Shown here: positions 5,059 to 32,702 of the stretch, one piece after another
Layout of the letters: every line of letters starts with the position of its first letter
Position numbering within the stretch: the stretch's first letter is position 1
Assembly (NCBI GenBank): GCA_018830005.1
Contig: JAHJTE010000001.1
Location: 257,332-321,331 of the forward strand
Length of the DNA: 64,000 nt
Source of the DNA: Candidatus Omnitrophota bacterium
GTDB lineage: Bacteria > Omnitrophota > Gorgyraeia > JAHJTE01
Direction of reading: 5' to 3'
The notes under the pieces: generated by a model
What the model was told of the DNA's origin: nothing
The model's database searches: none
What the model saw: only the letters and a program-made list of their open reading frames with translations
Made by a program: the position numbers and the translations under genes

Positions 5059-5072
5059 TATAACTTAAAGAA

Positions 5073-6311: not shown

Positions 6312-6392
6312 CAAGATTAAATAAGCAATAAAGGAGGCTAAAAACAGGGATTGGGGGACACATTTTATCTTAGCAGCAGGATTACTAGAGAG

Positions 6393-6418
6393 TTGTGGCT
6401 ATAATAAGTCAGCCACAA
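6393..6418 (+). terminator. hairpin (8-bp stem ttgtggct / agccacaa, 10-nt loop) about 80 nt downstream of the GT4 gene; possible terminator
   Basis: Perfect inverted repeat read directly from the sequence; the following tract (gctactctgttttgtcgg) is only moderately T-rich. Confidence 0.3.
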
Positions 6419-6594
6419 GCTACTCTGTTTTGTCGGTTATTGATAGAATTCCGGCGTACTTTCATCGCGTCTATGCCCATATCTTAGTGGATTAGCCAAA
6501 GATATTAGATGCAGCCATAGAGATATTTACAGGAATAAAGACCGGCGTAAATGAGGACTCTTATGAATACAAGAGGATCAAGGAAGATGAGTCT

Positions 6595-7016: not shown

Positions 7017-7027
7017 ATAAACTTAAT

Positions 7028-9092: not shown

Positions 9093-9101
9093 GAACTAGA
9101 G

Positions 9102-9818: not shown

Positions 9819-9875
9819 TAGAAAAGGTTGTTAGCTTAAAGTAATCTTAAGTCTTTTTAGGCCAGATAAATTAAT

Positions 9876-12406: not shown

Positions 12407-12410
12407 GTTT

Positions 12411-14512: not shown

Positions 14513-14525
14513 GGACTTAGAGTAA

Positions 14526-16606: not shown

Positions 16607-16610
16607 CTTA

Positions 16611-19209: not shown

Positions 19210-20242
19210 ATTGAAGAAAATCACGGACATAAACAGTATCCTATTAGTAAATCTTGGTGGCATTGGCGATATACTTTTATCCATACCTGCGCTTAGGGCA
19301 CTGCGTGGCTTTTATAAAAAATCCACCATAACATTATTAACAACACCACGCTCTGTGGATTTGATGAAAGATTATCCCTACATAGATAAGATTATCCTTT
19401 TTAATCCAGGATTATGGCAAAAATTAAAACTGGTTTTTATTTTAAGCAGACTTCATTTTGACCTAGCAATAAATATGAGATCCTTAACTTCTTACTTAAG
19501 CAGTCTTAAGATGGCATCTTTATTTTTATTAGCTGGTGCAACTTACCGTGTTGGCCGAGATACCAATGCAAGGGGTTTCTTCTTAAATGAAAAAATTCCA
19601 GAGGACGATATTGCACAAATGCACGATATAGATTATTATTTCGAAATATTCAAGGTTTTGGGAGTAGAAGGTGAAGGTAGAAATATAGACTTAAAAGTTA
19701 ATCATGAAGATGCTAAATTTATTGATAGATTTCTGCTAGATAACGATGTTGGCCAAAATGATATTTTGATTGGCATAAATCCGGGTGGTACTTGGCCAAC
19801 GCGGCGTTGGCCAATAGAGAATTTTGTTAAACTAATTGAGTTATTGAGAAAAGAAAAAGACTTTAAAATAATAATTACCGGAGGCAAAAAAGAGCTAGAT
19901 TTGGCAATAAAATTAGTGAGCCTATCTAAGGTTGGTATCATTAATGCCACTAATAAGACGAATGTTGGCCAGCTTATGGCATTAATTAAAAGATGCAATG
20001 TCTTTATTTCCAATGACGCTGGCCCGATGCATTTAGCTGCTGCCTTAGCTACTCCTTTAATTGCTTTGTTTGGCCCCGGGGATATTACTCGCTATGACCC
20101 GCGTCGAATATCAGAAAAGGCAGTTGTATTTTATAATAAAGTCGATTGTGCGCCTTGTTTTAAGGTTAGATGCAGTTCTATGAATTGTTTTTCATCCCTG
20201 AGGCCTGAGGAAATATCTAAGGCGGCTTTAAAATTAGTATGA
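19187..20242 (+). CDS. glycosyltransferase family 9 (heptosyltransferase-like), tandem paralog
   Basis: Contains ILLVNLGGIGDILLSIPALRALR and C-terminal SNDAGPMHLAAAL. There is no in-frame ATG before the conserved motif, so a TTG start is required (19187, 19199 or 19211). Confidence 0.75.
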   Translation: MRSSLGNKLKKITDINSILLVNLGGIGDILLSIPALRALRGFYKKSTITLLTTPRSVDLMKDYPYIDKIILFNPGLWQKLKLVFILSRLHFDLAINMRSLTSYLSSLKMASLFLLAGATYRVGRDTNARGFFLNEKIPEDDIAQMHDIDYYFEIFKVLGVEGEGRNIDLKVNHEDAKFIDRFLLDNDVGQNDILIGINPGGTWPTRRWPIENFVKLIELLRKEKDFKIIITGGKKELDLAIKLVSLSKVGIINATNKTNVGQLMALIKRCNVFISNDAGPMHLAAALATPLIALFGPGDITRYDPRRISEKAVVFYNKVDCAPCFKVRCSSMNCFSSLRPEEISKAALKLV

Positions 20243-20256
20243 AAATAATATTTAAT

Positions 20257-20389
20257 ATTTACAAAAGATTTCGAATCCTCCTAGCATGCAAGGGCGAAGA
20301 AGGACAATATTTTTCAGGATATCTGCCCTCTAAGGTAAGGGATGAGTTCTTAAGCATATGTAAGAGGAAATCAGGTAGGATCCTAGAGA
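20257..20389 (+). repeat. duplicated 5' fragment of a SAM-methyltransferase gene (copy A)
   Basis: Bases 20301-20389 match 21691-21780 at about 94% identity (5 mismatches in 90 nt). The translated fragment IYKRFRILLACKGEEGQYFSGYLPSKVRDEFLSICKRKSGRILE matches the N-terminus of the methyltransferase at 21630 and ends exactly before motif I. Confidence 0.85.
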
Positions 20390-20457
20390 GGCAGTAGAGA
20401 CACTGCTATATAAGAGATAAATTAAAAAAAGCGTCTTTAAAAAACAAAAACAATATA

Positions 20458-21606
20458 TTGATTGTGAAATCATTACTTGTTACTTTTGATTTTCCCCCTA
20501 TAGTCAGTGGAATTGGCACTGTTTTTTATAATATCTGGAGGCTAATGTCTCCAGAAAATAACTTTATTTTAGCCCCCAAGGTAAAAGGGTATAAAATAAT
20601 AGACAGTAGCAGCGGATTGAGTATATTCCGTTACTTTAGTTTTTGTCGCTCTGCTTTTTTGAGAGCAGTCATTTTATTTTTTTATACCTTTTGGATAGTT
20701 CGAAAAAAAAGGATAGATATTATAGTTTGTGGCGTTCCTGTCAGCATAGGTTTAATCGGATTAGTATTTAAAAAGATAGCCAGATTACCTTATTGCGTAT
20801 TTTATTATGGTGGAGAATTAGAGAAATATAAAAGACGCAAAATCATTTTAAGGCTATTAGAGAGGGTCCTTAAGAACGCTTGTTTTGTCATTGTCAATAG
20901 CGAGTTTACGAGTAAAGAAGTGAAGAAATTTGGCATAGAGGAAGATAAAGTTATAAAGGTTACGCCTGGTGTAGATGTGCAGATTTTTAAGCCAGATTTG
21001 GATTGTTCTGATTTAAAAAAGCGTTTAGGCCTTGAGAACAAAAAAGTATTATTAACTGTATCGCGCTTGGTAGAACGCAAAGGGATTGATGTGGTTATTA
21101 AGGCGTTAGCGAGGCTTAGTGAGAAATTTCCTAGTTTAGTATATTTAATTGTAGGCAGTGGCGAACAAGAGGGTTATCTTAAAGCCCTTGTTGAGAAAAA
21201 TTCACTGAACAAGAACGTTATCTTTATCGGTAAGGTTACGAATGAAGACCTGCCAAAATATTATAATCTTTGCGATATTTACGTTATGCCCAATAGGAAG
21301 ACCCTTGGTGAAGAGATTATAGAAGGTTTTGGTATTTCTTTTATTGAGGCTTCGGCATGCGCTAAGCCTGTTATTGGTGGTAATTCCGGAGGCGCAGGAG
21401 AAGCTGTTTGGGATAAGCGTACTGGGTTTTTAATTGACTCTGAAGATATAGATGCACTTGTGCAAAGTATTACTTGTTTATTAGAGGATGAGAAGCAAGC
21501 GGGTGAACTGGGTAATACTGGGCGCAGATTGATGCAAGAAGAGTTCAGGTGGCAATATCGCGCAGATAGCCTCAAAAAGATATTAAGCTGTTGTCTTCAA
21601 AAATAG
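20458..21606 (+). CDS. glycosyltransferase GT4
   Basis: Contains EGFGISFIEASACAKPVIGG. Paralog of the CDS at 12411; TTG start with no Shine-Dalgarno sequence. Confidence 0.8.
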   Translation: MIVKSLLVTFDFPPIVSGIGTVFYNIWRLMSPENNFILAPKVKGYKIIDSSSGLSIFRYFSFCRSAFLRAVILFFYTFWIVRKKRIDIIVCGVPVSIGLIGLVFKKIARLPYCVFYYGGELEKYKRRKIILRLLERVLKNACFVIVNSEFTSKEVKKFGIEEDKVIKVTPGVDVQIFKPDLDCSDLKKRLGLENKKVLLTVSRLVERKGIDVVIKALARLSEKFPSLVYLIVGSGEQEGYLKALVEKNSLNKNVIFIGKVTNEDLPKYYNLCDIYVMPNRKTLGEEIIEGFGISFIEASACAKPVIGGNSGGAGEAVWDKRTGFLIDSEDIDALVQSITCLLEDEKQAGELGNTGRRLMQEEFRWQYRADSLKKILSCCLQK

Positions 21607-21629
21607 CAAAAAACAAATTTTGATTCAGT

Positions 21630-22295
21630 ATGAGTATATTAAGCCGTATATATGAGAAGCTTAGATTTTTAATTGCGCGTAAAGGCGAAAAAGGAGAGTA
21701 TTCTTCAGGATATCTGCCTTCTAAGGTAAGGGATGAATTCTTAAGCATATGTAAGAGGAAATCAGGTAGGATCCTAGAGATTGGTTGCGGCGAGGGACTG
21801 TTTATTATAAATTTATTAAAGAAAGCTAAGGGATTGAAGATATTTGGCGTTGATATTTTACGAGAAGGCCTACTAAATGCCAAAGAGAAATTAAAGGCCC
21901 AAGATGCTAAAGCAGTAAACTTAATTGAATCTAACGGTAACGAGCTTTGTTTTAAGGATAACACCTTTGATTATGTAGTATGTTTAAATACGCTTTTTAA
22001 TTTGCCTTCTTTTGAAAATGTAAAAGGAATTATTGCTGAATCTGTGCGCGTGGCTAAAAAAGGCGCAGAGATTATAGTAGATATTAGAAATAAGAATGAT
22101 CTAGTTACGTCTTTACGTTATAGATTTGTTAAGCTTTATGATTCAAAATGCGCTGTAGCGTTAAGACAATATGACCCACAAGAGATTATTGAAATTTTTG
22201 AGCAAAATAACGCCGAGGTTCTAGAGGTTTTACCTATTAGAGCTTTTTTTAACTTAACTGTCCCTATAACAATTATTAAGGCCAAGAAAAGATAA
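21630..22295 (+). CDS. class I SAM-dependent methyltransferase
   Basis: Motif I LEIGCGEGLF and acidic loop GVDIL. The bases 21645-21780 of this gene are copy B of the duplicated fragment. Confidence 0.7.
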   Translation: MSILSRIYEKLRFLIARKGEKGEYSSGYLPSKVRDEFLSICKRKSGRILEIGCGEGLFIINLLKKAKGLKIFGVDILREGLLNAKEKLKAQDAKAVNLIESNGNELCFKDNTFDYVVCLNTLFNLPSFENVKGIIAESVRVAKKGAEIIVDIRNKNDLVTSLRYRFVKLYDSKCAVALRQYDPQEIIEIFEQNNAEVLEVLPIRAFFNLTVPITIIKAKKR

Positions 22296-23482
22296 TGATT
22301 TTAAAAAAAGTTCCTATAGTTGCTACAGACTTTAATATCCCTGATATCTTTTCAGTCTTTAGGGGTTTTAAGGCCAAGGAAAGATTCGAGAAAGAATTAG
22401 CCGCCTCTCTAGGTTTAAAATATGTTTTTACTGTTGATTCTGGCACTAGCGCTTTTTATCTTATATTAAAGGCGCTATCTTCAACTTATCCGGATAAAAA
22501 AGAAGTTGTTTTGCCTGCCTATACTGCTGCCTCATTGGTTTTACCTATAAAAAGATTGGGCTTAAAAATAGTTCTCTGTGATATTTCCTTGGATACTTTT
22601 AACCTAGATATAGAAGGTCTTAATAATTTGATCTCAAAAAATACTCTCTGTGTAACTGTAGTGCATCTATTTGGCTTGGTCTTTGATTTAGAGGCTTTTA
22701 GTAGTATTATCAAACGAAAAGGGATAGATACTATTATCGTTGAAGATTGCGCTCAAGCTTTAGGCTCTTTCATAAACAAACGATCTGTTGGTTCTGGAAG
22801 CGATGTGAGCCTTTTTAGTTTTAATCGAGGTAAAAATATGTCTACTGCTTCGGGTGGTGCAATAGGCGCAAATGATGATAGGTTGGCCGATTTGATTAGA
22901 AAAGAGATAAACATCTTAAGGGGCCCGTCAATTTTTAATAAGTTTATGATTATTGTAAAACTTATTTTGCTTTCTTTGGTTGTAAGGCCACTTATATATA
23001 ATTGTCTTTATCACGTATTAAAGACCTTTAGAAGCACAAAGACACCTATGGATTTTTCTGTCTCAAATTATACAGATGTACAATCTAGGGTCGGATTATC
23101 TTTATTAAAGAGATTGCATCTTTTTAGTAAAGCAAGACATTCAAACGGCTCGTTTCTTTATGATTTATTAAGTAATAAGCAGGATCTTATTATTCCTCAT
23201 ATTCTTAATCTCAGCATACCAGCCTATAATCGTTTTCCTGTTATATTCAGAGATATCCAGGTAAAAAAGAGGATTAGGACAATTCTTTCTGAAGCAGGCA
23301 TAGATAGTTCAGAGATGTATGAGCAGCCTTTGCATTTTAAATTCAATCTCGGATATAAAAAAGGAGATTTCCCTAATGCAGAATTTATTGCTGAAAGGCT
23401 TCTTACGTTGCCGAGCCATCCTTTAGTAAATAAGGCTATGTTGAATTTAATGCGGAAAATTTTTGATGAAAATTTGCAATGA
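22295..23482 (+). CDS. DegT/DnrJ/EryC1/StrS-family PLP-dependent sugar aminotransferase
   Basis: Contains SFNRGKNMSTASGGAI (the family's S-F-H-x-x-K-x-l-x-x-G-E-GG-A Schiff-base lysine region) and DCAQALGS. TAATG stop/start overlap with the upstream methyltransferase. Confidence 0.8.
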   Translation: MILKKVPIVATDFNIPDIFSVFRGFKAKERFEKELAASLGLKYVFTVDSGTSAFYLILKALSSTYPDKKEVVLPAYTAASLVLPIKRLGLKIVLCDISLDTFNLDIEGLNNLISKNTLCVTVVHLFGLVFDLEAFSSIIKRKGIDTIIVEDCAQALGSFINKRSVGSGSDVSLFSFNRGKNMSTASGGAIGANDDRLADLIRKEINILRGPSIFNKFMIIVKLILLSLVVRPLIYNCLYHVLKTFRSTKTPMDFSVSNYTDVQSRVGLSLLKRLHLFSKARHSNGSFLYDLLSNKQDLIIPHILNLSIPAYNRFPVIFRDIQVKKRIRTILSEAGIDSSEMYEQPLHFKFNLGYKKGDFPNAEFIAERLLTLPSHPLVNKAMLNLMRKIFDENLQ

Positions 23483-24642
23483 GTCTGATTAAAAGCTTAA
23501 AAAGAAAGATTTATAAGGCTGCCAGAGAGCCGGCTTACGCCTTGGCTGTTTTAATAAAGAGATTCGCCTCCTTATTTAGTTATTATGTTTTTCAAGGTAG
23601 AAGCAGTTGGCCCGAGACGGTTTCTTTGTTTTTGACTTACCGTTGCAATTTGGCTTGTTCGATGTGCGGCTATTGGGGAAAGTGCGGCTCTTTGAAAGAT
23701 AAAAAGGAGGATTGCCTTAGAGAAGATTTGAATCTTCAAGATTTAGAAAAGATTATCGATGATATAGCAGGCCTTGCGCCGAATATTACTCTTTTTGGCG
23801 GAGAACCGTTTCTCTATCCAGACTGGCCGGTGCTTGTAAAATATATAAAAAATAAAGGATTGCGTTGTAATGTCGTTACTAATGGTACGCTCCTTGCCGC
23901 AAGAGAGCAGGAGGTAATCGATTCTGGTCTTGATGAAATTATTTTTTCCTTAGAGGGCACACAGGAAATTCATGATAAGATTACCAATACCTTAGGTTCA
24001 TTTGATAAGGCCTTTAATGCACTTAGTAAGATTGCAAAGTTAAAGAAAATGAATAATCTGAGGTTACCCAAGATTAATGTTGCCACTACAATTTCGGAAG
24101 ATAATTTCTCTAATCTTTATGAAATATTTAAGACAGCAGAAAAACTCTCACCCGATACTATAACCTTTCATCATCTCTCTTTTGTGGATAGAGAAAGCGT
24201 TGCCAAAACCAATCGGATACTTAAAGATAATTTTGGCATACTAAGCCGAGATTGGGAAGGTTTCATCAGGAATGAACTGCCAAAGATTGATACCGCTGTC
24301 TTAATTGAAGAGATTAAAAAGATAGAGAGTTACCCGAAGGCTTGCGGTGTGTTTTTCTACCCTGATTTTAGACAAAAAGAAATAATAGAATACTACAAAG
24401 ATTTTAATTTTAAATCAAAACAATTTGCCAATCGTTGCTTAAGTCCCTGGATGACTGTTTACATATTCCCTGATGGAAAGGTGGGCCCTTGCGAGGAGTT
24501 GAATATTTATTTTGGCAATATAAAGAAAGAAAGTTTTAAGGACATTTGGAATAATCAGCAGTTTTGCAAATTCAGAAAGATTTTAAAGAGAGAGAGAATT
24601 TTTCCAGTTTGTACTCGCTGTACTGAGTTGTATCGATTCTGA
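23479..24642 (+). CDS. radical SAM protein with C-terminal Cys-rich SPASM/twitch-like auxiliary-cluster domain
   Basis: Radical-SAM cluster motif C-N-L-A-C-S-M-C (C-x3-C-x2-C) with a following GGEP motif. The C-terminal region carries additional cysteines (C..PW...C at about 321, C at about 340, C-x2-C-x5+ in FPVCTRCTELY). Confidence 0.75.
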   Translation: MSLIKSLKRKIYKAAREPAYALAVLIKRFASLFSYYVFQGRSSWPETVSLFLTYRCNLACSMCGYWGKCGSLKDKKEDCLREDLNLQDLEKIIDDIAGLAPNITLFGGEPFLYPDWPVLVKYIKNKGLRCNVVTNGTLLAAREQEVIDSGLDEIIFSLEGTQEIHDKITNTLGSFDKAFNALSKIAKLKKMNNLRLPKINVATTISEDNFSNLYEIFKTAEKLSPDTITFHHLSFVDRESVAKTNRILKDNFGILSRDWEGFIRNELPKIDTAVLIEEIKKIESYPKACGVFFYPDFRQKEIIEYYKDFNFKSKQFANRCLSPWMTVYIFPDGKVGPCEELNIYFGNIKKESFKDIWNNQQFCKFRKILKRERIFPVCTRCTELYRF

Positions 24643-24644
24643 AG

Positions 24645-25811
24645 ATGAAGAAAATAAAAATTATCCACATCATTACCCGCTTGGACAGGGGCGGTTCTTC
24701 AAGGATAGTACTGGATATTACAAAGTCCTTAAATAAGGATGATTTTAGTCAAAAGATTATCAGTGGGTTGACTAAAGATCCGGAGCAGGATTTGAATGAA
24801 TTTAGTAAACAGAGCGGGGTTCAAATTATATTCCTAGATTGCCTACGCAGAGATATTAATATCTTTTTAGATTTTTTTAGCTTGTTTAAATTGTATCGGT
24901 TGATTAAGAGAGAAAAGCCAGACATTATTCATACCCATACTTCCAAGGCAGGTTTTTTGGGTCGCTTAGCAGCAAGGATGGCTAAGGTAGAGGTTATTAT
25001 TTATATGCCACACGGCAATATTTTTTATGGCTACGCCGGAGCGTTATTATCTAGATTATTCGAAATACTTGAGCGATTTTGTGCTAATTTTACCGATATA
25101 ATCGTTACGCTTACTGATATTGGAAAGAAAGAGTTTCTTTCTAGGGGCATTGGGGGGCAAGAAAAGTTTGTCACGATTCATAATGGAATAGATTTTAAAG
25201 AATATGAACAAATTAATCTTAGAAGAGTAGAACAGTTAAAACAGGAGTTTAAGATAGCGAAAGATTGTGCTGTAGTCACTACTGTATCCAGGCTTGAGTC
25301 AGTTAAGGGGATAGAATTTTTTATTAAGGCTTTAAAACAGTTGGATAAAACCGGTGCTAATTTTAAGGCATTAATAGTGGGGGAAGGTTCCCTAAAGACT
25401 AAATTAGTAAAGTTTGCTAGGGTATTAGATTTGGAAGACAAAATTATTTTTTTAGGTTTCAGAGAAGATATAAAAGAGATTATTGCTTTATCTGATTGCG
25501 TAGTGAATCCAGCCTTAAATGAGGGCTTTGGCTTGGTTATTTTAGAGGCGTTTGCCTTAGCTAAGCCAGTCATCGCTACCCGGGTAGGAGGGGTGAGGGA
25601 GATTGTGGAAGATAATAATACAGGTATCCTTGTTCAGCCAGCAAATCCCGATGAGCTGACAGAGGCAATTGTCGAGGTTTTACAAAATAAAGAGAAGACA
25701 AAAGCATTAACATCTCAGGCGAAAACTAAATTAGAAAAAGAGTTTACAAAAGAAAAAATGTTAGCAAGCTTTAGAGACCTATACTTAAATCTTGCAAAGG
25801 GTAAAAAATAG
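24645..25811 (+). CDS. glycosyltransferase GT4
   Basis: Contains EGFGLVILEAFALAKPVIATRVGG, the classic GT4 motif. Confidence 0.85.
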   Translation: MKKIKIIHIITRLDRGGSSRIVLDITKSLNKDDFSQKIISGLTKDPEQDLNEFSKQSGVQIIFLDCLRRDINIFLDFFSLFKLYRLIKREKPDIIHTHTSKAGFLGRLAARMAKVEVIIYMPHGNIFYGYAGALLSRLFEILERFCANFTDIIVTLTDIGKKEFLSRGIGGQEKFVTIHNGIDFKEYEQINLRRVEQLKQEFKIAKDCAVVTTVSRLESVKGIEFFIKALKQLDKTGANFKALIVGEGSLKTKLVKFARVLDLEDKIIFLGFREDIKEIIALSDCVVNPALNEGFGLVILEAFALAKPVIATRVGGVREIVEDNNTGILVQPANPDELTEAIVEVLQNKEKTKALTSQAKTKLEKEFTKEKMLASFRDLYLNLAKGKK

Positions 25812-26501
25812 ATGATTATTTCAGTGCATCAACCACAATATTTACCCTGGTTAGGGTTTTTTGATAAGATTGACAGAAGCGATTGCTTTGTATTTTTAGA
25901 TAATGTCCAATATAAAAAACGCGAATTCCAAAACAGAAACAAAATCCGTACCAAAGATAGCTGGATATGGTTGACCGTACCCGTAATTACCAAAGGTTTA
26001 TATACTCAAAAGATTAACGAGGTAGAAATTGACAATGACCTTGATTGGTCTAATGATCATCTAAAAAGCATTAAATTTAACTATAGCCGTGCCCAGTTTT
26101 TTAAAGTTTATTTTGAATTTTTCCAAAAGCTCTATTCAAAGAAATGGCAAAGATTAGCTGATTTGAATGTGTTCATAATAAAGGAGATGCTTCTTTCTCT
26201 GGGAATCAGAAAAGATATTTATTTTGAGTCAGAGTTAGGTATAATCTCTGAAAAGTCTTGCCGGATAATAGATATCTGCAAAAGATTGAATGCTGATACA
26301 TATTTTTCTGGTGAGGGCGGCAGGGATTACCTTGATGAAAAACAATTTGAAAAGAATTCTATCAAATTAGTTTATCAGGATTTTGCGCATCCAGAATATG
26401 GGCAGTGCTATGGTTCATTCGTCAGCAATATGTCAATAATTGACCTTTTATTTAATCAGGGAAAAAATTCCTTGGAGATTTTAAGAGGCAAATTAGTTTA
26501 A
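25812..26501 (+). CDS. WbqC-like family protein
   Basis: Begins MIISVHQPQYLPWLGFFDKI, the hallmark N-terminus of the WbqC family (IHQPNYLPWLGYF); 229 aa; the ATG immediately follows the upstream stop. Confidence 0.75.
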   Translation: MIISVHQPQYLPWLGFFDKIDRSDCFVFLDNVQYKKREFQNRNKIRTKDSWIWLTVPVITKGLYTQKINEVEIDNDLDWSNDHLKSIKFNYSRAQFFKVYFEFFQKLYSKKWQRLADLNVFIIKEMLLSLGIRKDIYFESELGIISEKSCRIIDICKRLNADTYFSGEGGRDYLDEKQFEKNSIKLVYQDFAHPEYGQCYGSFVSNMSIIDLLFNQGKNSLEILRGKLV

Positions 26502-26504: not shown

Positions 26505-27069
26505 ATGAATCGAGTAAAAAAGACAATATCCAATGTTGTATTGATTCTTGGTTCATTTTTATTTGTCCTGTTTATACTTGAGGCTGGCGTAAGGATATTT
26601 ATTCCGGTTGTAAAGCCTGCGATGATTGTAAAAAAGGCCTCGCCGAAAAATCTGGAGAAACCCTTAGCATTTCTAGAGTCGTTCTTTGAAGGGACCTTTT
26701 TGCGCAAAGGCTTAGTCCGATTTAGGCAGGGACAGAACTGTCTGGAATTAGAGAGGTTGGGATATTACAAAAGAGGAACTCAAGAAAATAAATACCCTTG
26801 CTAAAGGCACCGACGTATCTTTTGTAGTAATACGTATACATTTTTTGTATGATGTTTATAATCGCGGCGAAGATCAAGTGAGTAAAATTTTAGCTGAATT
26901 TGCTAAAAAGAATAACATTAACGTATGTGATCTATTAACAGCTCTCAGAGAGAACAGGGGCAGCGATTTATATTATCCGGCAGATGGACACTGGAAGCCT
27001 CTGGCTCATAAATTGGCAGCGGAAGGGATTTATAATTACTTAGTTGATAAGAGCTTATTAAATAAATAA
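26505..27069 (+). pseudogene. SGNH/GDSL-like hydrolase paralog, internally deleted
   Basis: The 99-aa N-terminal piece (TM segment plus VRFRQGQ) and the 74-aa C-terminal piece (LYYPADGHWKP) align to the two ends of the intact 351-aa paralog at 28717-29772 (LGFRGQE and IDEIHMSPKG), but they lie in different frames and the central catalytic region of about 180 aa is absent. Confidence 0.55.
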
Positions 27070-27083
27070 AGAGGTATTAGATT

Positions 27084-27758
27084 ATGTGTGATACTGCTGG
27101 TATTATTTTTGGAGTTAAAAATTTCTCTAAAGAAGAAATTGAAGGAAAGAGGATAATTGAGGTTGGTTCTTTTGATGAGAATGGAAGTTTGCGCCCTTTC
27201 ATTGAGTCGCTTAATCCTCGTGAATATATAGGAATAGACATTAAGGAAGGTCCGGGTGTAGACATGATTTGTAGCGTAGAGGAGATGGTAGAAAAATTTG
27301 GACGCGAGAGCTTTGACATTATTATTTCTACAGAGCTTTTAGAGCACGTAAGAGACTACAAGAGAGGTATTGCAAACATTAAAAATATCTGTAAACTAGG
27401 TGGCACAGTATTCATAACTACCCGTTCCTATGGTTTCCTTTATCATGGTTTCCCTAGTGATTACTGGAGATTTGAAGCCTCTGACCTGGAGTACATATTT
27501 TCAGATTGTCTTATTGAAAAAATTGAAAAGGATAAATACTCCCCGGGAGTTTTTATTAAGGTTAGAAAACCAAAAGACTTTAAGGAGAACGATTTAGCTA
27601 GTTTAGAACTATATTCCATTATTTTAGATAAAAGGACAAAAGAAATAAAACCTAAAGATATAAATATTTTTCAGAAGAGGAAAAATAGAAATCAGCGTGT
27701 TAAAAAAATAATAAATGATATAGGAAAATTATTTTATAGGATAGTAGAGAGATTTTAG
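27084..27758 (+). CDS. SAM-dependent methyltransferase (Methyltransf_11-like)
   Basis: Contains IEVGSFDENG and DIIISTELLEHV motifs; 224 aa. Confidence 0.6.
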   Translation: MCDTAGIIFGVKNFSKEEIEGKRIIEVGSFDENGSLRPFIESLNPREYIGIDIKEGPGVDMICSVEEMVEKFGRESFDIIISTELLEHVRDYKRGIANIKNICKLGGTVFITTRSYGFLYHGFPSDYWRFEASDLEYIFSDCLIEKIEKDKYSPGVFIKVRKPKDFKENDLASLELYSIILDKRTKEIKPKDINIFQKRKNRNQRVKKIINDIGKLFYRIVERF

Positions 27759-27848
27759 TCAATCCTTTTAAAATTAATCCAAGGCCGCAGTAGAGATTAA
27801 AAATTATTTTATGCAGATAGTTCCTTTGCAGCTAAATAAGAATCGACA

Positions 27849-28720
27849 ATGAAATCAAGATTATTAATTTACTTCAAGAGATCAGCTTTATTATTTATCG
27901 CTTTCAGTACAGTTGTTGCAATTTTATTCTTTATCTTTATCGCACCGCATAGAACCTTACCAATTTTAATGTACCATTCTATTTCAGCCGTTGAAGAGAA
28001 AAATAATCTGAGCCTGCCAAAGAATATTTTTGATAAGCAGATGCAATATTTGTCGAAAAATAATTATAAAATAATTTCTTTAAGCGAAGCTGCTAATTTG
28101 ATTAAACAAGGCTCGAGTATTCCAAATAATTTGTTGGTGTTAAACTTTGATGATGGCTATAGAGATTTCTATGGTCGGGCCTATACCATACTTAAAAAAT
28201 ATCAATTTAAGGCAACGGTTTTTGTAATTATTGATTCTCTCGGAGAAAAAAATAATCTAAGCTGGGAACAGGCGCAGGATTTAGCAAAAGACGATTTAAT
28301 AGATATTGGCGCCCATTCCTTAAGCCACAGAATTTTGCCTTTATTATCCCGCGAAGAAGCCAGGAAAGAAATTTTTCTTTCAAAATTGATTTTAGAGACA
28401 AGATTAAACAAAACTATAGAATCTTTTTGTTATCCTTATGGTGTGCTAGATGATTCCATAAAAGAGTTGGTTAAGGAGGCTGGTTTTGACCCGCTGTAGG
28501 TACTGCTTATCAGAAGGAGGAGTTTAAAGACGATGATATCTACACATTAAAAAGGGTATTTGTTTCCAAATTTTCTAAGTACCCACTTGTTTTTAGATTT
28601 ATGATTTCTGGTTATTATGTTCCTATAAGAGGATTCCTCCTAAGGCTATTAAATATAAAAACTCCGCGCGATTTTTACGCTGCAAAAAGACAAAAATCTT
28701 ATTTACTGATACAGAAATGA
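27849..28720 (+). pseudogene. polysaccharide deacetylase (NodB/CE4) with a -1 frameshift near 28496 (or an assembly error)
   Basis: The track ORF stops at 28499 after AGFDPL. The -1 frame continues as VGTAYQKEEFKDDDIYTLKRVFVSKFSKYPLVFRFMISGYY..., which aligns with the C-terminus of the paralog at 1040-2083 (NRHDEDIFLLKRLFIAEDNLAQFVYKISG). It ends with TGA at 28718-28720, forming an ATGA overlap with the next gene's ATG at 28717. Motifs LNFDDGYRDFY and IGAHSLSHRIL are present. Confidence 0.7.
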
Positions 28721-29772
28721 AAAGATTTACCAGTAGAAAAAAAGCCCTTTCGTATATATTAATAATCTTGTTATTTTTTCTTGTAGCAGAGGTAATGTTA
28801 CGCATACGCGAAAGAGTTAAAGCAAAAGAGACCCAGGTTTATGGACAAATTAATTTTTTTTCGTCCCATCCTTTTCTTAATTATGTGCTGAATCCAAAGA
28901 TAGCGAAGCATAATTCATTAGGTTTTAGGGGTCAAGAGATAGATATTTCTAAAGAGGAAAATATTTATAGAATATTTTGCCTAGGTGCATCTAGTGTCTA
29001 TGGTTCAAGGGTTTCCCCGGAAGAGTCCTATCCTTATTTTCTTAATCAGCTTCTAAAGAATACCGTTAAAAAGAAAGTACCCGATGTGATTAACGCCGGC
29101 GTGCCGGGATACACATCAGCTAATATTTTTTTATTATTTCAATTTCGCATTCTTCCTCTATCACCTGATATGATAATAATTTATTCTGGATTTAACGACA
29201 TATTTCCCAGGATTATGGGTAAGGGTGCCTTTGATTATTCAGATTTTAATATTGTTTGGAGGCCGATACCAGCTTTAAAAAGGGCTCTATTTAAAAGTAT
29301 ATTAGCTCAAAAGATTATTGGCCGAGTGGGAGAAAGATTAGGGATTGCTTTTTTAACCTGGCCGCCGCATATTCATGAAATTGTTCAGAAATGGCCATAT
29401 CAATATGTTACTGGTGATTATAAAAGGAATTTAGCGAATACGTCTGCGCAGATTTTCCAACGAAATATTTTGTCCTTGATTCAGCTTGCCAGGGCTAATG
29501 ATGTCGATGTTGTTTTAGTGGCTCAAGTTTTAGGTCCTGTAAAAGAGAGCAAATCAATATATGCTGAATTGGCTAAAGGAATTATGGAACATAACAATGT
29601 TATTCGTAATTTAACCCGCCAGACTGGTGTTTATTTAATAGATTTAGAAAGCATATTTCCAAGGCGTTCGGAGATGTTTATCGATGAAATCCATATGAGT
29701 CCAAAGGGAAATAAAATACGCGCTGAAATTATTTCAGAAACTATAGCAAAAATTATACAAGAGGATAATTAG
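28717..29772 (+). CDS. SGNH/GDSL-like hydrolase family protein, N-terminal membrane anchor
   Basis: Contains N-terminal GASSVYG (a GDS-like block I Ser), GFNDI, and a C-terminal D-x-x-H catalytic dyad (IDEIHMSP); 351 aa. Confidence 0.55.
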   Translation: MKRFTSRKKALSYILIILLFFLVAEVMLRIRERVKAKETQVYGQINFFSSHPFLNYVLNPKIAKHNSLGFRGQEIDISKEENIYRIFCLGASSVYGSRVSPEESYPYFLNQLLKNTVKKKVPDVINAGVPGYTSANIFLLFQFRILPLSPDMIIIYSGFNDIFPRIMGKGAFDYSDFNIVWRPIPALKRALFKSILAQKIIGRVGERLGIAFLTWPPHIHEIVQKWPYQYVTGDYKRNLANTSAQIFQRNILSLIQLARANDVDVVLVAQVLGPVKESKSIYAELAKGIMEHNNVIRNLTRQTGVYLIDLESIFPRRSEMFIDEIHMSPKGNKIRAEIISETIAKIIQEDN

Positions 29773-29811: not shown

Positions 29812-29820
29812 TGATATAAT
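29812..29820 (+). promoter_or_regulatory. extended -10 promoter element TGaTATAAT upstream of the PIG-L/WecA/ATPase operon
   Basis: Read as gtGATATAAT in the sequence, with the ribosome-binding site AGAGGTGA and ATG 29837 placed 17 nt downstream. The -35 region is A/T-rich but weak. Confidence 0.4.
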
Positions 29821-29836
29821 CAATAGAGGTGATATT

Positions 29837-30451
29837 ATGAACATATTGGCAATCGGTGCGCATCCGGATGATATTGAATTTGGCTGCGGTGGGACATTAT
29901 TGAAATATACTAAGGCCAAAAATAATGTTTATCTTTTAATTTTAACTAAAGGAGAAATCGGAGCCTCTGGCGCTAGGCGATGTCAAGAGCAGAAAGAATC
30001 CGCTAAATTCTTAAAAGCAAAACGCGTTTTTTGGGGGAATTATAAGGACACTAAAATATGTTTAACCAAAGAGTTGATTGGAAAGATCGAGGCAATATTG
30101 AATAAGGTTAAGCCAGAGATTGTCTTATTTAATGCTCCTTCTGATATCCATCAAGATCACAGGGTGGTTGCAGAGGCCGCTATTTCAGCTACAAGATATA
30201 TAAAGAAGGTCTTATTTTATGAGGTCCCGACTACTATTGGCTTTGAGCCGGATATATTTGTTGATATTGGTGATATTATCTTTGAAAAACTCCAACTCCT
30301 AAAGTTGCATCGTTCTCAAGTGCATAAGACAAGAGTCCCAGGCTTAAGTATAATGGATAGTGCGACCTCTTGTGCAAATTTCAGGGGTTTTCAGGGGCGA
30401 GTGAAGTATGCTGAGGGATTCAAGGCCTTAAGGTTTATGTTAGAGTCATGA
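29837..30451 (+). CDS. PIG-L/LmbE-family N-acetylglucosaminyl deacetylase
   Basis: Begins MNILAIGAHPDDIEFGCGGTL (the AHPDDE zinc-binding signature), with later HQDH. Confidence 0.8.
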   Translation: MNILAIGAHPDDIEFGCGGTLLKYTKAKNNVYLLILTKGEIGASGARRCQEQKESAKFLKAKRVFWGNYKDTKICLTKELIGKIEAILNKVKPEIVLFNAPSDIHQDHRVVAEAAISATRYIKKVLFYEVPTTIGFEPDIFVDIGDIIFEKLQLLKLHRSQVHKTRVPGLSIMDSATSCANFRGFQGRVKYAEGFKALRFMLES

Positions 30452-31503
30452 AATTATTCTATATTTTCATCTTTTCAGTAGTGAGCACATTTATTTTCAC
30501 GCAGATTGCGATAAGGATCGGTTTTAAATTCAATGTCCTTGACCGCCCCGAGAAGAGGAAGATACACGTTCAGCCGGTTCCTCTATTGGGAGGTCTTGCC
30601 CTTGCTATTCCATATCTGTTAATCCTTTTTGTAATTAGAAATGAATTTGATATTGTAATTCTCAGTGTATTGTTTGGAGGCCTTATTATACTTATTGTAG
30701 GTTTTTTGGATGATCTTAATAAGCTTTCAGCCAGGTTACGCCTAGGTATTCAGATACTTGTAGTTTTAATGCTTATTACAAATTCAGCCACATTGACTAT
30801 TTTTCCTAATACAGCTTGGGGTATTATCTTAAGATGTCTTATAACCATCCTCTGGATTGTAGGAATAACGAATGCTATGAATTTCCTCGATGGAATGGAT
30901 GCGCTCTGCGCAGGTCTAGTCTGTATTAGTAGCCTTTGTTTTGCTGTAATTGCTTTTTTCACAAATCAGAATCAGATTTTATTTTTGAGTATTATTCTTT
31001 TCGGCTGCTGTTTGGGTTTTCTGCCGCATAACCTTAAGCCAGCAAAGGTTTTCTTAGGTGATTCTGGCAGCACATTTTTGGGATTTATGCTGGCAAGTAT
31101 TGCTGTTGTTGGCGTGTGGGCACAAGACCGTATTGTAGGGATAAGCATCCCAATTTTAATTCTCGGGGTTCCTATTTTTGATATGGTTTTTACTACGGTT
31201 ATGCGTGTTAAAGAGGGGAAAGTGAAGAATGTTAAACAGTGGTTAGAATATGCTGGTAAAGATCATTTTCATCATAGGCTAGTAGATTTAGGTCTGCAGC
31301 CTCAAGGAGCGGTTATTTTCATTTATCTAGTCAGCATATGTTTAGGTATTAGTGCTATGGTACTACTTAGAGCTACTTGGAAGATTGCTATTATTTTATT
31401 GATTCAGGCAGCCGCGATTTTTCTAATGATAGCCGTACTTATGATTATTGGCAAACGTCGCCGCAGCGGCTGGAATATAGATAAACTAAAAGCTAAGGAT
31501 TAA
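30448..31503 (+). CDS. polyprenyl-phosphate N-acetylhexosamine-1-phosphate transferase (WecA/MraY family)
   Basis: Contains VLDRPEKRKIHVQPVPLLGG and NAMNFLDGMDAL (the family's N-A-x-N-x-x-DG-x-D motif), 10-11 TM segments, and an ATGA overlap with the upstream PIG-L gene. Confidence 0.85.
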   Translation: MKLFYIFIFSVVSTFIFTQIAIRIGFKFNVLDRPEKRKIHVQPVPLLGGLALAIPYLLILFVIRNEFDIVILSVLFGGLIILIVGFLDDLNKLSARLRLGIQILVVLMLITNSATLTIFPNTAWGIILRCLITILWIVGITNAMNFLDGMDALCAGLVCISSLCFAVIAFFTNQNQILFLSIILFGCCLGFLPHNLKPAKVFLGDSGSTFLGFMLASIAVVGVWAQDRIVGISIPILILGVPIFDMVFTTVMRVKEGKVKNVKQWLEYAGKDHFHHRLVDLGLQPQGAVIFIYLVSICLGISAMVLLRATWKIAIILLIQAAAIFLMIAVLMIIGKRRRSGWNIDKLKAKD

Positions 31504-31505
31504 AT

Positions 31506-32324
31506 ATGTATGAGAAATATTGGAAGTTAAAAGAAAAACCTTTTGAGAATACGCCCGATCCTAAATTTATCTATTATTCGGATCAGCATAGAGAAGGCCT
31601 CTCGCGTCTGCTATACGCTGTGAGAGAACAAAAGGGCGCAGGAGTTCTTACAGGTGTATTTGGTTGCGGCAAAACACTTTTAGGCAGGACCTTATTAAAG
31701 GAGCTAAGTAGAGAAGTTTACAAGACGGCATTCATTGCAAATCCTAAGCTTGAATACGTAGAATTATTAATGACTATTGCTAGTCGCCTCGGCGCAAAGG
31801 AGCTGCCGAAAAAGCGTACAGAGGTATTGACGAATGTTGTTTTGGATGCCTTAAGCGAAATCCTAGAAAATAATGCCAGGGACGGCAAGAAGACAGTGCT
31901 TATTATTGATGAGGCGCATGTAATCGAAGATAAAAATGTCTGGGAGGAATTGCGCCTTCTACTTAATTTCCAGACTGAAAGAAATTTCCTTATAAATGTG
32001 CTCTTTCTCGGTCAGCCGGAATTAAAAGATGCTATTGAGCGTAACAGGCAATTGTCACAGCGCATTGCTATACACTGTCACCTTTGCCAGCTAAGCGAGG
32101 AGGATACAACTAAATATATTAAGCATCGTTTTAAAGTTGCTGGAGGCGATGAGGGGGTTTTTGCTGATTCGGCAATTCATTTAATTTATGAATATTCGGG
32201 AGGTATTCCGCGCAGAATTAATCACCTTTGCGACTTGGCCCTATTGACGGCATTTAGTCATAAGGTTAGAAATATTGAGGGCGAGATGGTTAAGGAGGCC
32301 TTTTCAGATTTGGAGGTCGAATAG
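31506..32324 (+). CDS. ExeA/GspA-like AAA ATPase (AAA_22 family)
   Basis: N-terminal PFENTPDPKFIYYSDQHREGL, Walker A GVFGCGKT and Walker B LIIDEAHV, an architecture typical of ExeA-type and EPS-locus-associated ATPases. Confidence 0.7.
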   Translation: MYEKYWKLKEKPFENTPDPKFIYYSDQHREGLSRLLYAVREQKGAGVLTGVFGCGKTLLGRTLLKELSREVYKTAFIANPKLEYVELLMTIASRLGAKELPKKRTEVLTNVVLDALSEILENNARDGKKTVLIIDEAHVIEDKNVWEELRLLLNFQTERNFLINVLFLGQPELKDAIERNRQLSQRIAIHCHLCQLSEEDTTKYIKHRFKVAGGDEGVFADSAIHLIYEYSGGIPRRINHLCDLALLTAFSHKVRNIEGEMVKEAFSDLEVE

Positions 32325-32411: not shown

Positions 32412-32585
32412 ATGAAAAAACTGGCTGATGTTTGTATACCCATAGCTATTGCTTCTATTGTGTTAGGAATAATTTCTCGGATAATGTTTAGGCCATTATT
32501 TGAAGTAGGAGCCAGAGGATTTTTAGGTTTTGCCACTGTAATGCTTCTTTTAGCTATTGCTATTACATTGAAAGAGAAGGCTTAA
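32412..32585 (+). CDS. small (57 aa) two-TM membrane protein, unknown function
   Basis: Strong Shine-Dalgarno sequence (AAGGAGGGGGAGG) 1 nt before the ATG, a consensus promoter upstream and a hairpin downstream; the sequence MKKLADVCIPIAIASIVLGIISRIMFRPLFEVGARGFLGFATVMLLLAIAITLKEKA is too short to appear in the ORF track. Confidence 0.4.
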   Translation: MKKLADVCIPIAIASIVLGIISRIMFRPLFEVGARGFLGFATVMLLLAIAITLKEKA

Positions 32586-32629
32586 TTAAGGCAACTGTTG
32601 TTAACTCACTTTTCGGTTAGTTAGCATGA

Positions 32630-32660
32630 TGCCCGCTTTTTTATCCAAAAAAAGCGGGCA
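32630..32660 (+). terminator. stable hairpin GCCCGC-U6-AUCC-A7-GCGGGC, possible terminator
   Basis: Perfect inverted repeat tgcccgctttttt / aaaaaagcgggca. The U-tract lies inside rather than after the stem, so its function is uncertain. Confidence 0.45.
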
Positions 32661-32702
32661 TACTGTTATTTGCAAAGATGGGTACAGATAAAATACCACA
32701 AA

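What the first reader, a model, noticed from the sequence alone, without database searches (positions are those of the whole stretch)
29812..32324. PIG-L-type deacetylase translationally coupled to a WecA/MraY-type initiating transferase and an ExeA-like ATPase
Behind an extended -10 promoter, three overlapping genes (ATGA, then a 2-nt gap) encode an LmbE/PIG-L N-acetylglucosaminyl deacetylase, a polyprenyl-P HexNAc-1-P transferase (NAMNFLDGMDAL) and an ExeA/GspA-family AAA ATPase. The arrangement mirrors eukaryotic GPI-anchor step 2, where PIG-L de-N-acetylates lipid-linked GlcNAc straight after its transfer. That suggests a lipid-linked GlcN (free amine) primer for the glycan, which is unusual for bacterial Und-PP-linked pathways. 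ExeA-like ATPases in exopolysaccharide loci have no established function; here one closes the locus where the Wzc/Wza or ABC export functions would normally sit, and none of those are present in the window.
Basis: inference. Interest (0 to 1): 0.55.

Follow-up and report, generated by a model that had tools for sequence, protein, structure and literature searches.

The report
Conserved deacetylase–initiating transferase–ATPase glycan cassette
Three tightly packed genes in an uncultured Omnitrophota bacterium (a sugar de-N-acetylase, the membrane enzyme that starts a lipid-linked surface glycan, and a small ExeA-like ATPase) belong to a gene cassette conserved across several uncultured phyla and never studied, which probably starts a surface sugar chain on a lipid carrier and then strips the acetyl group from its first sugar.

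Summary
Three + strand genes (29837-30451, 30448-31503, 31506-32324) encode a PIG-L/LmbE deacetylase, a WecA/MraY-family polyprenyl-phosphate HexNAc-1-P transferase (PNPT) and a 272-aa AAA+ ATPase. They are joined by an ATGA overlap and a 2-nt gap.

The ATPase matches TIGR03015 (XrtA/PEP-CTERM-associated ATPase) over its full length but below the cutoff. It lacks the membrane and peptidoglycan-binding parts of ExeA/GspA.

The source is an Omnitrophota MAG. In 80 species-representative loci holding this ATPase, 22 of the 45 with enough flank also carry PIG-L and the PNPT next to it. The usual order is X-WbqC-ATPase-PIG-L-PNPT, in MAGs labelled Omnitrophota, Elusimicrobiota, Firestonebacteria and others. 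Separate look-ups add Margulisiibacteriota and Nitrospirae.

Sister loci replace PIG-L with an unrelated cytoplasmic deacetylase (TIGR03006) beside the PNPT. One locus carries only WbqC-PIG-L-PNPT.

The lipid-linked GlcN idea is plausible but untested.

The ATPase does not stand in for missing export genes. The locus has two Wzx flippases and a Wzy_C protein. Close ATPase relatives sit beside Wza/Wzc genes, and a separate clade sits in pilus/T2SS operons. I rate it an uncharacterised variant of a known kind, of moderate interest.

The parts
29812..29820 (+). Extended -10-like element TGATATAAT in the 64-nt gap before the deacetylase gene
   Evidence: Read. Conserved as TGTTATAAT in L006. Not enriched in the window as a motif.
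29837..30451 (+). PIG-L/LmbE-family zinc de-N-acetylase, 204 aa, no membrane segment
   Evidence: Pfam PF02585 92.8 bits. HPDD and D-HQDHR motifs are kept in at least 95% of 32 orthologues. No TM segment. Nearest solved structures are archaeal diacetylchitobiose deacetylase and BshB1.
30448..31503 (+). WecA/MraY-family polyprenyl-phosphate HexNAc-1-phosphate transferase (PNPT), 351 aa, polytopic
   Evidence: Pfam PF00953 127.8 bits. TIGR02380 WecA 115.9 bits, below the 326 cutoff. LDD, NAMNFLDGMDAL, FLGDSGS and DHFHH motifs are conserved. Many hydrophobic segments.
31506..32324 (+). Short soluble ExeA/GspA-like AAA+ ATPase of the TIGR03015 type, 272 aa
   Evidence: TIGR03015 227.9 bits, full length. 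AAA_22. Walker A GVFGCGKT, Walker B IIDEAH and GGIPRRIN are invariant in 21 homologues. The AF2 model resembles ORC/Cdc6, RuvB and TnsC. No TM segment.
25812..26501 (+). WbqC-family protein, the usual cassette partner of the three genes
   Evidence: Pfam PF08889 267.9 bits. Adjacent to ATPase/PIG-L/PNPT in most cassettes and directly coupled to PIG-L in L086. AF2 pLDDT 93.5, with no significant solved fold match.
26505..29772 (+). Lineage-specific insert between WbqC and PIG-L: SGNH/GDSL gene remnant, methyltransferase (27084-27758), frameshifted PF01522 deacetylase (27849-28690), membrane-anchored GDSL esterase (28717-29772)
   Evidence: Same gene content in L006.
32412..32585 (+). 57-aa two-helix membrane ORF that recurs at the end of the cassette, with its own promoter-like site (32341-32368)
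   Evidence: Homologues lie right after the cassette in L006, L009, L014, L021 and L074. An unnamed 58-aa ORF holds the same position in L087.
32629..32661 (+). Terminator-like hairpin closing the co-directional gene block
   Evidence: 14-bp stem, 6 G-C pairs, T-rich tail.
1..25811 (+). Upstream co-directional glycan assembly genes: Wzy_C ligase/polymerase-like (1-1020), two Wzx flippases (2109-3581, 16611-18065), GT4/GT2/GT9 transferases, methyltransferases, radical SAM enzymes, DegT aminotransferase

Best explanation
The three genes form the initiation module of a Wzx/Wzy-type, polyprenyl-diphosphate-linked surface glycan pathway in an Omnitrophota bacterium. The product is probably an O-antigen-like chain, given the neighbouring Wzy_C, GT9, LpxB and MsbA-like genes.

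Proposed steps:
1. The membrane PNPT transfers HexNAc-1-phosphate, most likely GlcNAc-1-P, from a UDP-sugar to the lipid carrier at the cytoplasmic face.
2. The soluble PIG-L enzyme, made in step with the PNPT through the ATGA overlap, removes the N-acetyl group from that first lipid-linked sugar or from a very early intermediate. This exposes a free amine.
3. In most relatives the adjacent WbqC protein then modifies that amine. In sister loci a methyltransferase is placed to do so.
4. The ATPase is a cytoplasmic, oligomerising AAA+ accessory of the EPS-type TIGR03015 group. It works with glycan initiation or export machinery rather than replacing it.

Shown: the gene content, the motifs and the cross-phylum linkage.
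Inferred: the substrate of the deacetylase, the role of WbqC and the role of the ATPase.
For: Gene linkage:
- In 45 species-representative loci with at least 3.5 kb on both sides of the ATPase, 22 carry PIG-L plus the PNPT beside it: XQAPW 18, APW 2, QPWA 1, XQPWA 1 (X = PHP-like membrane protein, Q = WbqC, A = ATPase, P = PIG-L, W = PNPT).
- 15 of 30 PIG-L/PNPT junctions overlap, mostly by 4 nt, judged from longest-ORF starts.
- L086 carries only WbqC-PIG-L-PNPT, overlapping and outside any glycan locus. This points to direct sequential action of the three.
- L087 has ATPase-ATPase-PIG-L-PNPT.

Non-homologous replacement:
- Sister loci (L001/L007, L003, L008, L013) have a TIGR03006 deacetylase (306 bits, above the 276 cutoff, no TM segment), then a methyltransferase, the PNPT, X and the ATPase. 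A cytoplasmic deacetylase therefore sits beside the PNPT in both designs.

Enzyme features:
- The catalytic and metal motifs of PIG-L, and the Mg/UDP-HexNAc motifs of the PNPT, are conserved.
- PIG-L has no signal peptide or TM segment, so it faces the side of the membrane where the PNPT product is made.
- A distant PIG-L relative is fused to an LpxD-like N-acyltransferase (P0395). This shows deacetylate-then-reacylate logic within the family.

Precedent:
- Characterised PIG-L enzymes act after glycosyl transfer (established knowledge of PIG-L, MshB and BshB).
- NaxD deacetylates Und-P-GalNAc (PMC10927774).

ATPase:
- Cassette-linked and Wza/Wzc-linked copies interleave in a tree, while MshE/T2SSF-linked copies form one separate clade.

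Pathway type:
- Two Wzx flippases and a Wzy_C protein lie in the same co-directional block, next to LpxB and an MsbA-like gene.
Against: - No biochemical datum exists for any member. No paper was found on the cassette or on TIGR03015.
- Gene linkage cannot tell deacetylation of the lipid-linked product from remodelling of the UDP-sugar donor before transfer.
- No PIG-L-PNPT fusion protein appears in the best 150 representatives.
- Eukaryotic PIG-L is membrane-anchored (my own knowledge). This protein is soluble.
- The sugar specificity of the PNPT is unknown, since the WecA equivalog cutoff is not met.
- The WbqC fold could not be assigned.
- The ATPase is absent from L086, so it is not obligatory for the chemistry.
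- X, present in most cassettes, is missing from the 64-kb window.
Confidence: 0.5

Rival explanations
1. Donor remodelling. PIG-L and WbqC act on the nucleotide sugar before transfer: UDP-GlcNAc to UDP-GlcN to UDP-GlcN-acyl. The PNPT then transfers the modified HexN(acyl)-1-phosphate to the lipid carrier. The first lipid-linked sugar never carries a free amine.
For: The isolated WbqC-PIG-L-PNPT trio in L086 fits a donor-supply pathway as well as it fits a post-transfer one. PIG-L is soluble. Its nearest solved relatives act on soluble substrates: diacetylchitobiose and GlcNAc-malate.
Against: I know of no PIG-L family enzyme that acts on a UDP-sugar. Characterised PNPTs recognise the 2-acetamido group of the donor (established knowledge of WecA, MraY and GPT). 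The gene order PIG-L then PNPT, with translational coupling, is neutral on this point.
Confidence: 0.2
2. Late deacetylation. PIG-L de-N-acetylates a HexNAc elsewhere in the finished lipid-linked repeat unit, not the primer sugar. It is simply co-inherited with the initiating enzyme.
For: The locus has several other modifying enzymes. In Klebsiella core LPS, GlcNAc is deacetylated after transfer to a growing glycolipid (my own knowledge of WabH/WabN, not checked here).
Against: The tight pairing with the PNPT persists while the surrounding glycosyltransferases vary completely. It holds even where no glycosyltransferase is nearby, as in L086.
Confidence: 0.15
3. Low-molecular-weight thiol or detoxification enzyme. 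The deacetylase is a BshB/MshB/Mca-type enzyme unrelated to the glycan, and its position is coincidental.
For: The best NCBIfam hit is BshB1.
Against: The score of 103.8 bits is far below the 182.5 cutoff, and MshB and Mca score under 20 bits. No BshC or MshC partner is present. The conserved neighbours are the PNPT, WbqC and the ATPase across phyla.
Confidence: 0.03
4. The ATPase is a true GspA/ExeA or MshM. It serves secretin or pilus assembly and only happens to lie next to the glycan genes.
For: It has the AAA_22 domain, and I recall its N-terminal motif as GspA-like (memory only, not compared here). A clade of homologues at about 50-59% identity sits between MshE/T2SSE and T2SSF genes. 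A prepilin peptidase gene lies at 59463-60236.
Against: The window copy groups with cassette-linked and Wza/Wzc-linked copies, not with the pilus-linked clade. It has no TM or peptidoglycan-binding domain. Adjacency to PIG-L/PNPT is seen in 22 of 45 loci. There are no T2SS genes nearby in the window.
Confidence: 0.05

Closest known systems
Eukaryotic GPI anchor steps 1-2 (PIG-A complex, then PIG-L)
   Same: A PF02585 de-N-acetylase is paired with the enzyme that puts the first GlcNAc on a membrane lipid. Both are cytoplasm-facing. The free amine is created after transfer.
   Different: The lipid is phosphatidylinositol, not a polyprenyl phosphate. The transferase is a GT4-fold glycosyltransferase unrelated to PNPTs. 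Eukaryotic PIG-L has a membrane anchor, and this protein has none. The resemblance is one of logic and does not make it the same pathway.
Mycothiol and bacillithiol pathways (MshA-MshB-MshC, BshA-BshB-BshC)
   Same: Same deacetylase family. The logic is the same: transfer GlcNAc, deacetylate, then load a new group on the amine. The best NCBIfam hit is BshB1.
   Different: The score is far below the equivalog cutoffs. The substrate there is a soluble conjugate. No ligase partner of the MshC or BshC type is present. The neighbours here are a PNPT, WbqC and an AAA+ ATPase.
NaxD/LgmC and ArnD: deacetylation or deformylation of undecaprenyl-phosphate-linked amino sugars for lipid A modification
   Same: A bacterial precedent for removing an N-acyl group from a polyprenyl-phosphate-linked sugar on the cytoplasmic side before flipping (PMC10927774; ArnD and LgmC from my own knowledge).
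   Different: Those use monophosphate-linked sugars made by GT2 enzymes, with YdjC or CE4 family hydrolases. The sugar ends on lipid A rather than priming a polymer.
XrtA/PEP-CTERM exopolysaccharide loci (TIGR03015 ATPase, TIGR03006 deacetylase, TIGR03088 transferases)
   Same: The ATPase aligns to TIGR03015 end to end. Sister loci carry a true TIGR03006 deacetylase and stp2-like GT4 genes. Close ATPase relatives sit beside Wza/Wzc-type genes.
   Different: No exosortase or PEP-CTERM protein was seen. The ATPase is below the family cutoff. The initiating enzyme is a PNPT, whereas I recall the PEP-CTERM loci using a PF02397 sugar transferase (that family is listed for them in PMC1569441). In the window PIG-L replaces TIGR03006.
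ExeA/GspA (type II secretion) and MshM (MSHA pilus)
   Same: AAA_22 ATPase domain with Walker A/B and a GIPRRIN motif. A sister clade of homologues sits in MshE-T2SSF operons.
   Different: It lacks the transmembrane segment and the peptidoglycan-binding domain of ExeA. No ExeB/GspB or secretin gene is nearby. It is linked to glycan genes instead.
WecA-initiated O-antigen/ECA synthesis
   Same: PNPT family, conserved DD, NxxNxxDGxD and HxHH-type motifs, and Wzx and Wzy_C partners in the same block.
   Different: The score of 116 bits against a cutoff of 326 means it is not a WecA equivalog. WecA loci have no dedicated deacetylase or AAA+ partner.

Membership tests
PIG-L/LmbE de-N-acetylase (PF02585) | Profile match above the curated cutoff | tested here: met
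   92.8 bits against a cutoff of 28.2.
PIG-L/LmbE de-N-acetylase (PF02585) | Metal-binding and catalytic motifs (A/G)HPDD and HxDH | tested here: met
   GAHPDD at residues 7-12 and DIHQDHR at 103-109, kept in at least 95% of 32 orthologues. They align to the same motifs in 8bgn.
PIG-L/LmbE de-N-acetylase (PF02585) | De-N-acetylase activity on a GlcNAc-containing substrate | not testable with these tools
   Needs an enzyme assay.
BshB1 / MshB equivalogs | Score above the NCBIfam equivalog cutoff | tested here: not met
   BshB1 103.8 against 182.5, BshB2 53.2 against 195, MshB 18.9 against 224.
PNPT / WecA-MraY superfamily (PF00953) | Profile match, polytopic membrane protein, and cytoplasmic-loop motifs DD, NxxNxxDGxD, GDxGS | tested here: met
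   127.8 bits. Many hydrophobic segments. LDD, NAMNFLDGMDAL and FLGDSGS are conserved.
WecA (TIGR02380) equivalog, UDP-GlcNAc specific | Score above the cutoff; GlcNAc-1-P transfer to Und-P | tested here: not met
   115.9 bits against 326. The DHFHH loop resembles what I recall as WecA's HIHH motif, but sugar specificity cannot be tested here.
TIGR03015 XrtA/PEP-CTERM-associated ATPase | Full-length alignment with P-loop GxxGxGKT and DEAx box | tested here: met
   Residues 1-272 align to profile 1-269/269. GVFGCGKT and IIDEAH are invariant.
TIGR03015 XrtA/PEP-CTERM-associated ATPase | Score above the curated cutoff | tested here: not met
   227.9 against 324.5.
TIGR03015 XrtA/PEP-CTERM-associated ATPase | Genome encodes exosortase XrtA and PEP-CTERM proteins | not tested
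   None appeared among the ORFs scanned in the 64-kb window. The rest of the 848-kb contig and of the genome could not be scanned.
ExeA/GspA | Transmembrane segment and C-terminal peptidoglycan-binding domain after the ATPase domain | tested here: not met
   272 aa, only AAA-type Pfam hits, no hydrophobic segment.
ExeA/GspA | Partner ExeB/GspB and T2SS or secretin genes nearby | tested here: not met
   None in the window. Only a separate clade of homologues has MshE/T2SSF neighbours.
Wzx/Wzy-dependent glycan pathway | Initiating phosphoglycosyl transferase, Wzx flippase and Wzy/WaaL-type protein in one locus | tested here: met
   PNPT at 30448-31503. Polysacc_synt_3 299 bits at 2109-3581 and Polysacc_synt 83.5 bits at 16611-18065. 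Wzy_C 32.8 bits (cutoff 31.7) at 1-1020.

The most novel reading that the evidence does not exclude
The cassette makes a reducing-end or primer amino sugar with a free or specially acylated amine, and that amine serves as a chemical handle. It would be a nucleophile or attachment point for covalently joining the glycan to another envelope component: a protein, as proposed for sortase-like exosortase systems, or peptidoglycan or a lipid. The TIGR03015-type ATPase would couple this priming step to the export apparatus. This would give the uncharacterised ATPase and deacetylase families named for XrtA/PEP-CTERM loci a first concrete biochemical role. It would also define a core envelope pathway shared by several uncultured phyla.
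Probability: 0.1. Interest if true: 0.8.

Novelty: new variant of a known kind. Interest (0 to 1): 0.5.

Why it matters
Short ExeA-like ATPases and dedicated deacetylases recur in exopolysaccharide loci, and no paper found here assigns them a role. This work links one such ATPase group to the initiating transferase and a cytoplasmic deacetylase in 22 of 45 sampled species-level loci spanning several phylum labels. Proteins across these loci are 50-79% identical. That level of conservation suggests a core envelope function in lineages such as Omnitrophota and Elusimicrobiota, most of which are known only from metagenomes.

The work also gives a simple testable scheme: transfer HexNAc-P to the lipid, deacetylate, then re-derivatise. 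It supplies a compact three-gene unit (WbqC-PIG-L-PNPT, locus L086) that could be expressed in E. coli. If the lipid-diphosphate-linked GlcN is confirmed, the GPI-type 'deacetylate after transfer' rule would extend to bacterial polyprenyl-diphosphate pathways.

Tried and rejected
- **Literature.** No paper mentions TIGR03015, PIG-L together with WecA, LmbE with undecaprenyl, or XrtA with deacetylase and ATPase. The single PEP-CTERM plus ExeA hit is a genome paper that I did not open. The PEP-CTERM founding paper does not discuss the ATPase. The WbqC papers listed gave no sign of a tested function, and none was opened. A WabN search returned only unrelated hits.
- **Protein X in the window.** A profile built from 29 orthologues found nothing in any frame.
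- **Rosetta-stone fusion of PIG-L with the PNPT.** None appears among the best 150 of 1.84 billion representatives. The fusions found are with TPR arrays, a HAD domain and an LpxD-like acyltransferase.
- **ATPase structure.** There is no sequence relative in PDB. Fold matches are generic initiator-clade AAA+ proteins, which say little about function.
- **Promoter.** The TGnTATAAT motif is not enriched, and the consensus scan did not rank it. Only its conservation in L006 supports it.
- **Chance adjacency.** Rejected on the locus counts.
- **Bacillithiol or mycothiol role.** Rejected on scores and neighbours.
Full report
**1. What is in the sequence**

The first junction is an ATGA overlap. The second is TAA, two bases, then ATG.

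Family scans give:
- Pfam PIG-L, 92.8 bits.
- Pfam Glycos_transf_4, the WecA/MraY family, 127.8 bits.
- Pfam AAA_22, 73.7 bits.
- NCBIfam puts the ATPase on TIGR03015 (XrtA/PEP-CTERM system-associated ATPase), end to end, at 227.9 bits. This is below the cutoff of 324.5.
- The deacetylase's best NCBIfam hit is BshB1, at 103.8 bits against a cutoff of 182.5.
- The transferase's best hit is WecA, at 115.9 bits against 326.

So all three are clear superfamily members, but none is an equivalog of a characterised enzyme.

The deacetylase and the ATPase have no hydrophobic segment. The transferase is polytopic.

TGATATAAT lies at 29812-20. As a bare motif it is not enriched: 2 hits against 5.3 expected. 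It is, however, kept as TGTTATAAT in the same intergenic gap of the closest relative. A transcript from it would have a leader of only about ten bases.

**2. Surroundings**

Everything from base 1 to 34416 is on the + strand. Bases 1-29772 form a large glycan assembly block:
- a Wzy_C protein (1-1020, cut by the window edge);
- two Wzx-type flippases (2109-3581 and 16611-18065);
- many GT4, GT2 and GT9 transferases;
- methyltransferases;
- two radical SAM enzymes;
- a DegT aminotransferase;
- a WbqC-family protein (25812-26501).

Downstream lie a 57-aa membrane ORF, a terminator-like hairpin, an Lrp-type regulator and an aminotransferase. After those come LpxB and a Gfo/Idh/MocA oxidoreductase, both on the - strand, then an MsbA-like ABC exporter on the + strand, and then housekeeping genes.

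There is no Wza or Wzc gene in the window. A Wzx/Wzy/ligase route next to lipid A genes does not need one.

**3. Source and relatives**

The ATPase is identical to a protein of a Candidatus Omnitrophota MAG, on an 848-kb contig. Homologues at 50-79% identity occur in MAGs labelled Omnitrophota, Elusimicrobiota/Endomicrobiales and Firestonebacteria. They also occur in MAGs labelled Planctomycetia, Ignavibacteria and Nitrospirota.

I fetched 80 species-representative loci and searched their six-frame ORFs with the window's proteins. Of these, 45 loci have at least 3.5 kb on both sides of the ATPase. With X for the PHP-like membrane protein, Q for WbqC, A for the ATPase, P for PIG-L and W for the PNPT, the orders found in them are:

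| Order | Loci |
|---|---|
| X-Q-A-P-W | 18 |
| A-P-W | 2 |
| Q-P-W-A or X-Q-P-W-A | 2 |
| W-X-A (no PIG-L) | 3 |
| X-A | 1 |
| A alone | 19 |

The window's order (Q ... P-W-A) is a minority permutation, shared with its closest relative L006.

Half of the PIG-L/PNPT junctions overlap, mostly by 4 nt, judged from longest-ORF starts.

A Nitrospirae-labelled contig carries only WbqC-PIG-L-PNPT, overlapping, among unrelated genes. A Margulisiibacteriota contig carries ATPase-ATPase-PIG-L-PNPT.

**4. A non-homologous swap**

In the W-X-A loci the gene order is: deacetylase, methyltransferase, PNPT, X, ATPase. The deacetylase there is a true TIGR03006 'XrtA system polysaccharide deacetylase' (306 bits, cutoff 276) with no membrane segment.

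A cytoplasmic deacetylase of an unrelated fold thus occupies the place beside the PNPT. This argues that deacetylation is functionally tied to the PNPT step and did not simply travel along with it.

X is a membrane protein with a signal or anchor helix, a PHP/CehA-McbA-like metallohydrolase domain and two internal helices. A profile of 29 orthologues finds no copy of X in the window.

**5. The ATPase**

It has an invariant Walker A (GVFGCGKT), Walker B (IIDEAH) and GGIPRRIN. Its predicted fold resembles the ORC/Cdc6, RuvB and TnsC AAA+ group. It has none of ExeA's membrane or peptidoglycan-binding parts.

The 'ATPase alone' loci fall into two contexts:
- **Glycan export.** One set has an HD-domain protein, a Wza-like export protein and a Wzc-like chain-length/tyrosine-kinase protein next to the ATPase.
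- **Pilus or T2SS.** The other set has the ATPase between MshE/T2SSE and T2SSF genes.

In a neighbour-joining tree the pilus-linked copies form one clade. The cassette-linked and Wza/Wzc-linked copies interleave.

The window's ATPase therefore belongs to a glycan-associated group that sits either with the initiation enzymes or with the export proteins. It suggests an accessory or coupling role, but the mechanism remains inferred.

**6. Most likely mechanism**

The proposed sequence is:
1. The PNPT makes polyprenyl-PP-HexNAc on the cytoplasmic face.
2. The soluble PIG-L enzyme removes the acetyl group.
3. WbqC, or a methyltransferase in sister loci, modifies the freed amine.
4. The chain is then extended, flipped by Wzx and polymerised or ligated by the Wzy_C protein.

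Support comes from:
- the conserved coupling of the genes;
- the isolated three-gene unit in L086;
- the deacetylase swap;
- conserved catalytic motifs;
- the rule that characterised PIG-L family enzymes act after glycosyl transfer (established knowledge);
- a distant PIG-L relative fused to an LpxD-like N-acyltransferase;
- the NaxD precedent for deacetylating a lipid-phosphate-linked HexNAc (PMC10927774).

The main rival is that PIG-L and WbqC remodel the UDP-sugar before transfer. Gene linkage cannot separate the two.

I put the lipid-linked model at about 0.5, donor remodelling at 0.2, late deacetylation at 0.15, and thiol or pilus roles at 0.05 or less each.

**7. Comparison and novelty**

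The logic matches GPI step 2, the mycothiol and bacillithiol pathways, and NaxD/ArnD. The parts are shared with XrtA/PEP-CTERM loci. No defining feature of BshB, MshB, a WecA equivalog, ExeA, or TIGR03015 above its cutoff is met.

No paper on the cassette was found. I rate it a new variant of a known kind: a widely conserved, uncharacterised initiation cassette.

**8. Limits**

- All relatives are MAGs, and some taxonomic labels are doubtful.
- The ORF calls in the loci use the longest possible start.
- The tree is a simple distance tree.
- The rest of the source genome could not be scanned for exosortase, Wza/Wzc or X.

Noticed in passing
window 27849-28690: The PF01522 polysaccharide deacetylase gene appears frameshifted. 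The L006 orthologue aligns with aa 1-214 at 27849-28487 and aa 206-282 at 28460-28690 in another frame. This is either an assembly error or a pseudogene.
   Followed up: partly
window 26505-27069: Remnant of an SGNH/GDSL esterase gene between WbqC and the methyltransferase. Only aa 1-65 and 230-353 of the intact 358-aa L006 homologue are matched, with a frame change, so about 165 codons are missing.
   Followed up: partly
window 32412-32585; L006 10903-11094; L009 2494-2763; L014 12789-13007; L021 13548-13739; L074 12715-12885; L087 3108-3284: A 57-58-aa two-helix membrane ORF recurs directly after the cassette in several phyla. In the window it has its own strong promoter-like site (TTGACA-16-TACAAT, 32341-32368) and a terminator hairpin. 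The L087 ORF is placed here by position and size only. Function unknown.
   Followed up: partly
L001 6413-7945; L005 5816-7264 and about 29 other loci: Protein X, of about 480-510 aa, has an N-terminal anchor, a PHP/CehA-McbA-like metallohydrolase domain and two internal helices. It is conserved at the head of the cassette in most relatives but absent from the 64-kb window.
   Followed up: partly
L020, L023, L043, L048, L072, L080 versus L027, L049-L051, L055, L073-L077, L085: Homologues of the ATPase occur in two other fixed contexts: next to Wza-like and Wzc-like polysaccharide export genes, or between MshE/T2SSE and T2SSF pilus/secretion genes. Several genomes carry tandem copies.
   Followed up: yes
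window 7028-9818: A nucleotidyltransferase, a GlpT-like MFS transporter and a CDP-alcohol phosphatidyltransferase (weakly similar to archaetidylinositol-phosphate synthase) sit together inside the glycan locus. They may form a polyol-phosphate decoration module.
   Followed up: no
window 10694-12406 and 23479-24642: A B12-binding radical SAM enzyme and a radical SAM/SPASM enzyme lie inside the glycan locus. The first weakly resembles P- or C-methyltransferases. This hints at unusual sugar modifications.
   Followed up: no
P0395, P0386, P0449, P0506, P0419 (relatives of the deacetylase): PIG-L domains at 35-47% identity are fused to an LpxD-like hexapeptide N-acyltransferase, to long TPR arrays, or to a HAD phosphatase.
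   Followed up: partly
window 34463-38503: A lipid A gene group lies directly downstream of the glycan block: LpxB and a Gfo/Idh/MocA oxidoreductase on the - strand, and an MsbA-like ABC exporter on the + strand. This shows the organism is diderm with LPS-type lipid A.
   Followed up: partly
L086 1-4427: Next to the isolated WbqC-PIG-L-PNPT trio lies a protein of more than 2,200 aa with cadherin, PKD and teneurin-like repeats, followed by an Rce1-like protease and a YD-shell protein.
   Followed up: no
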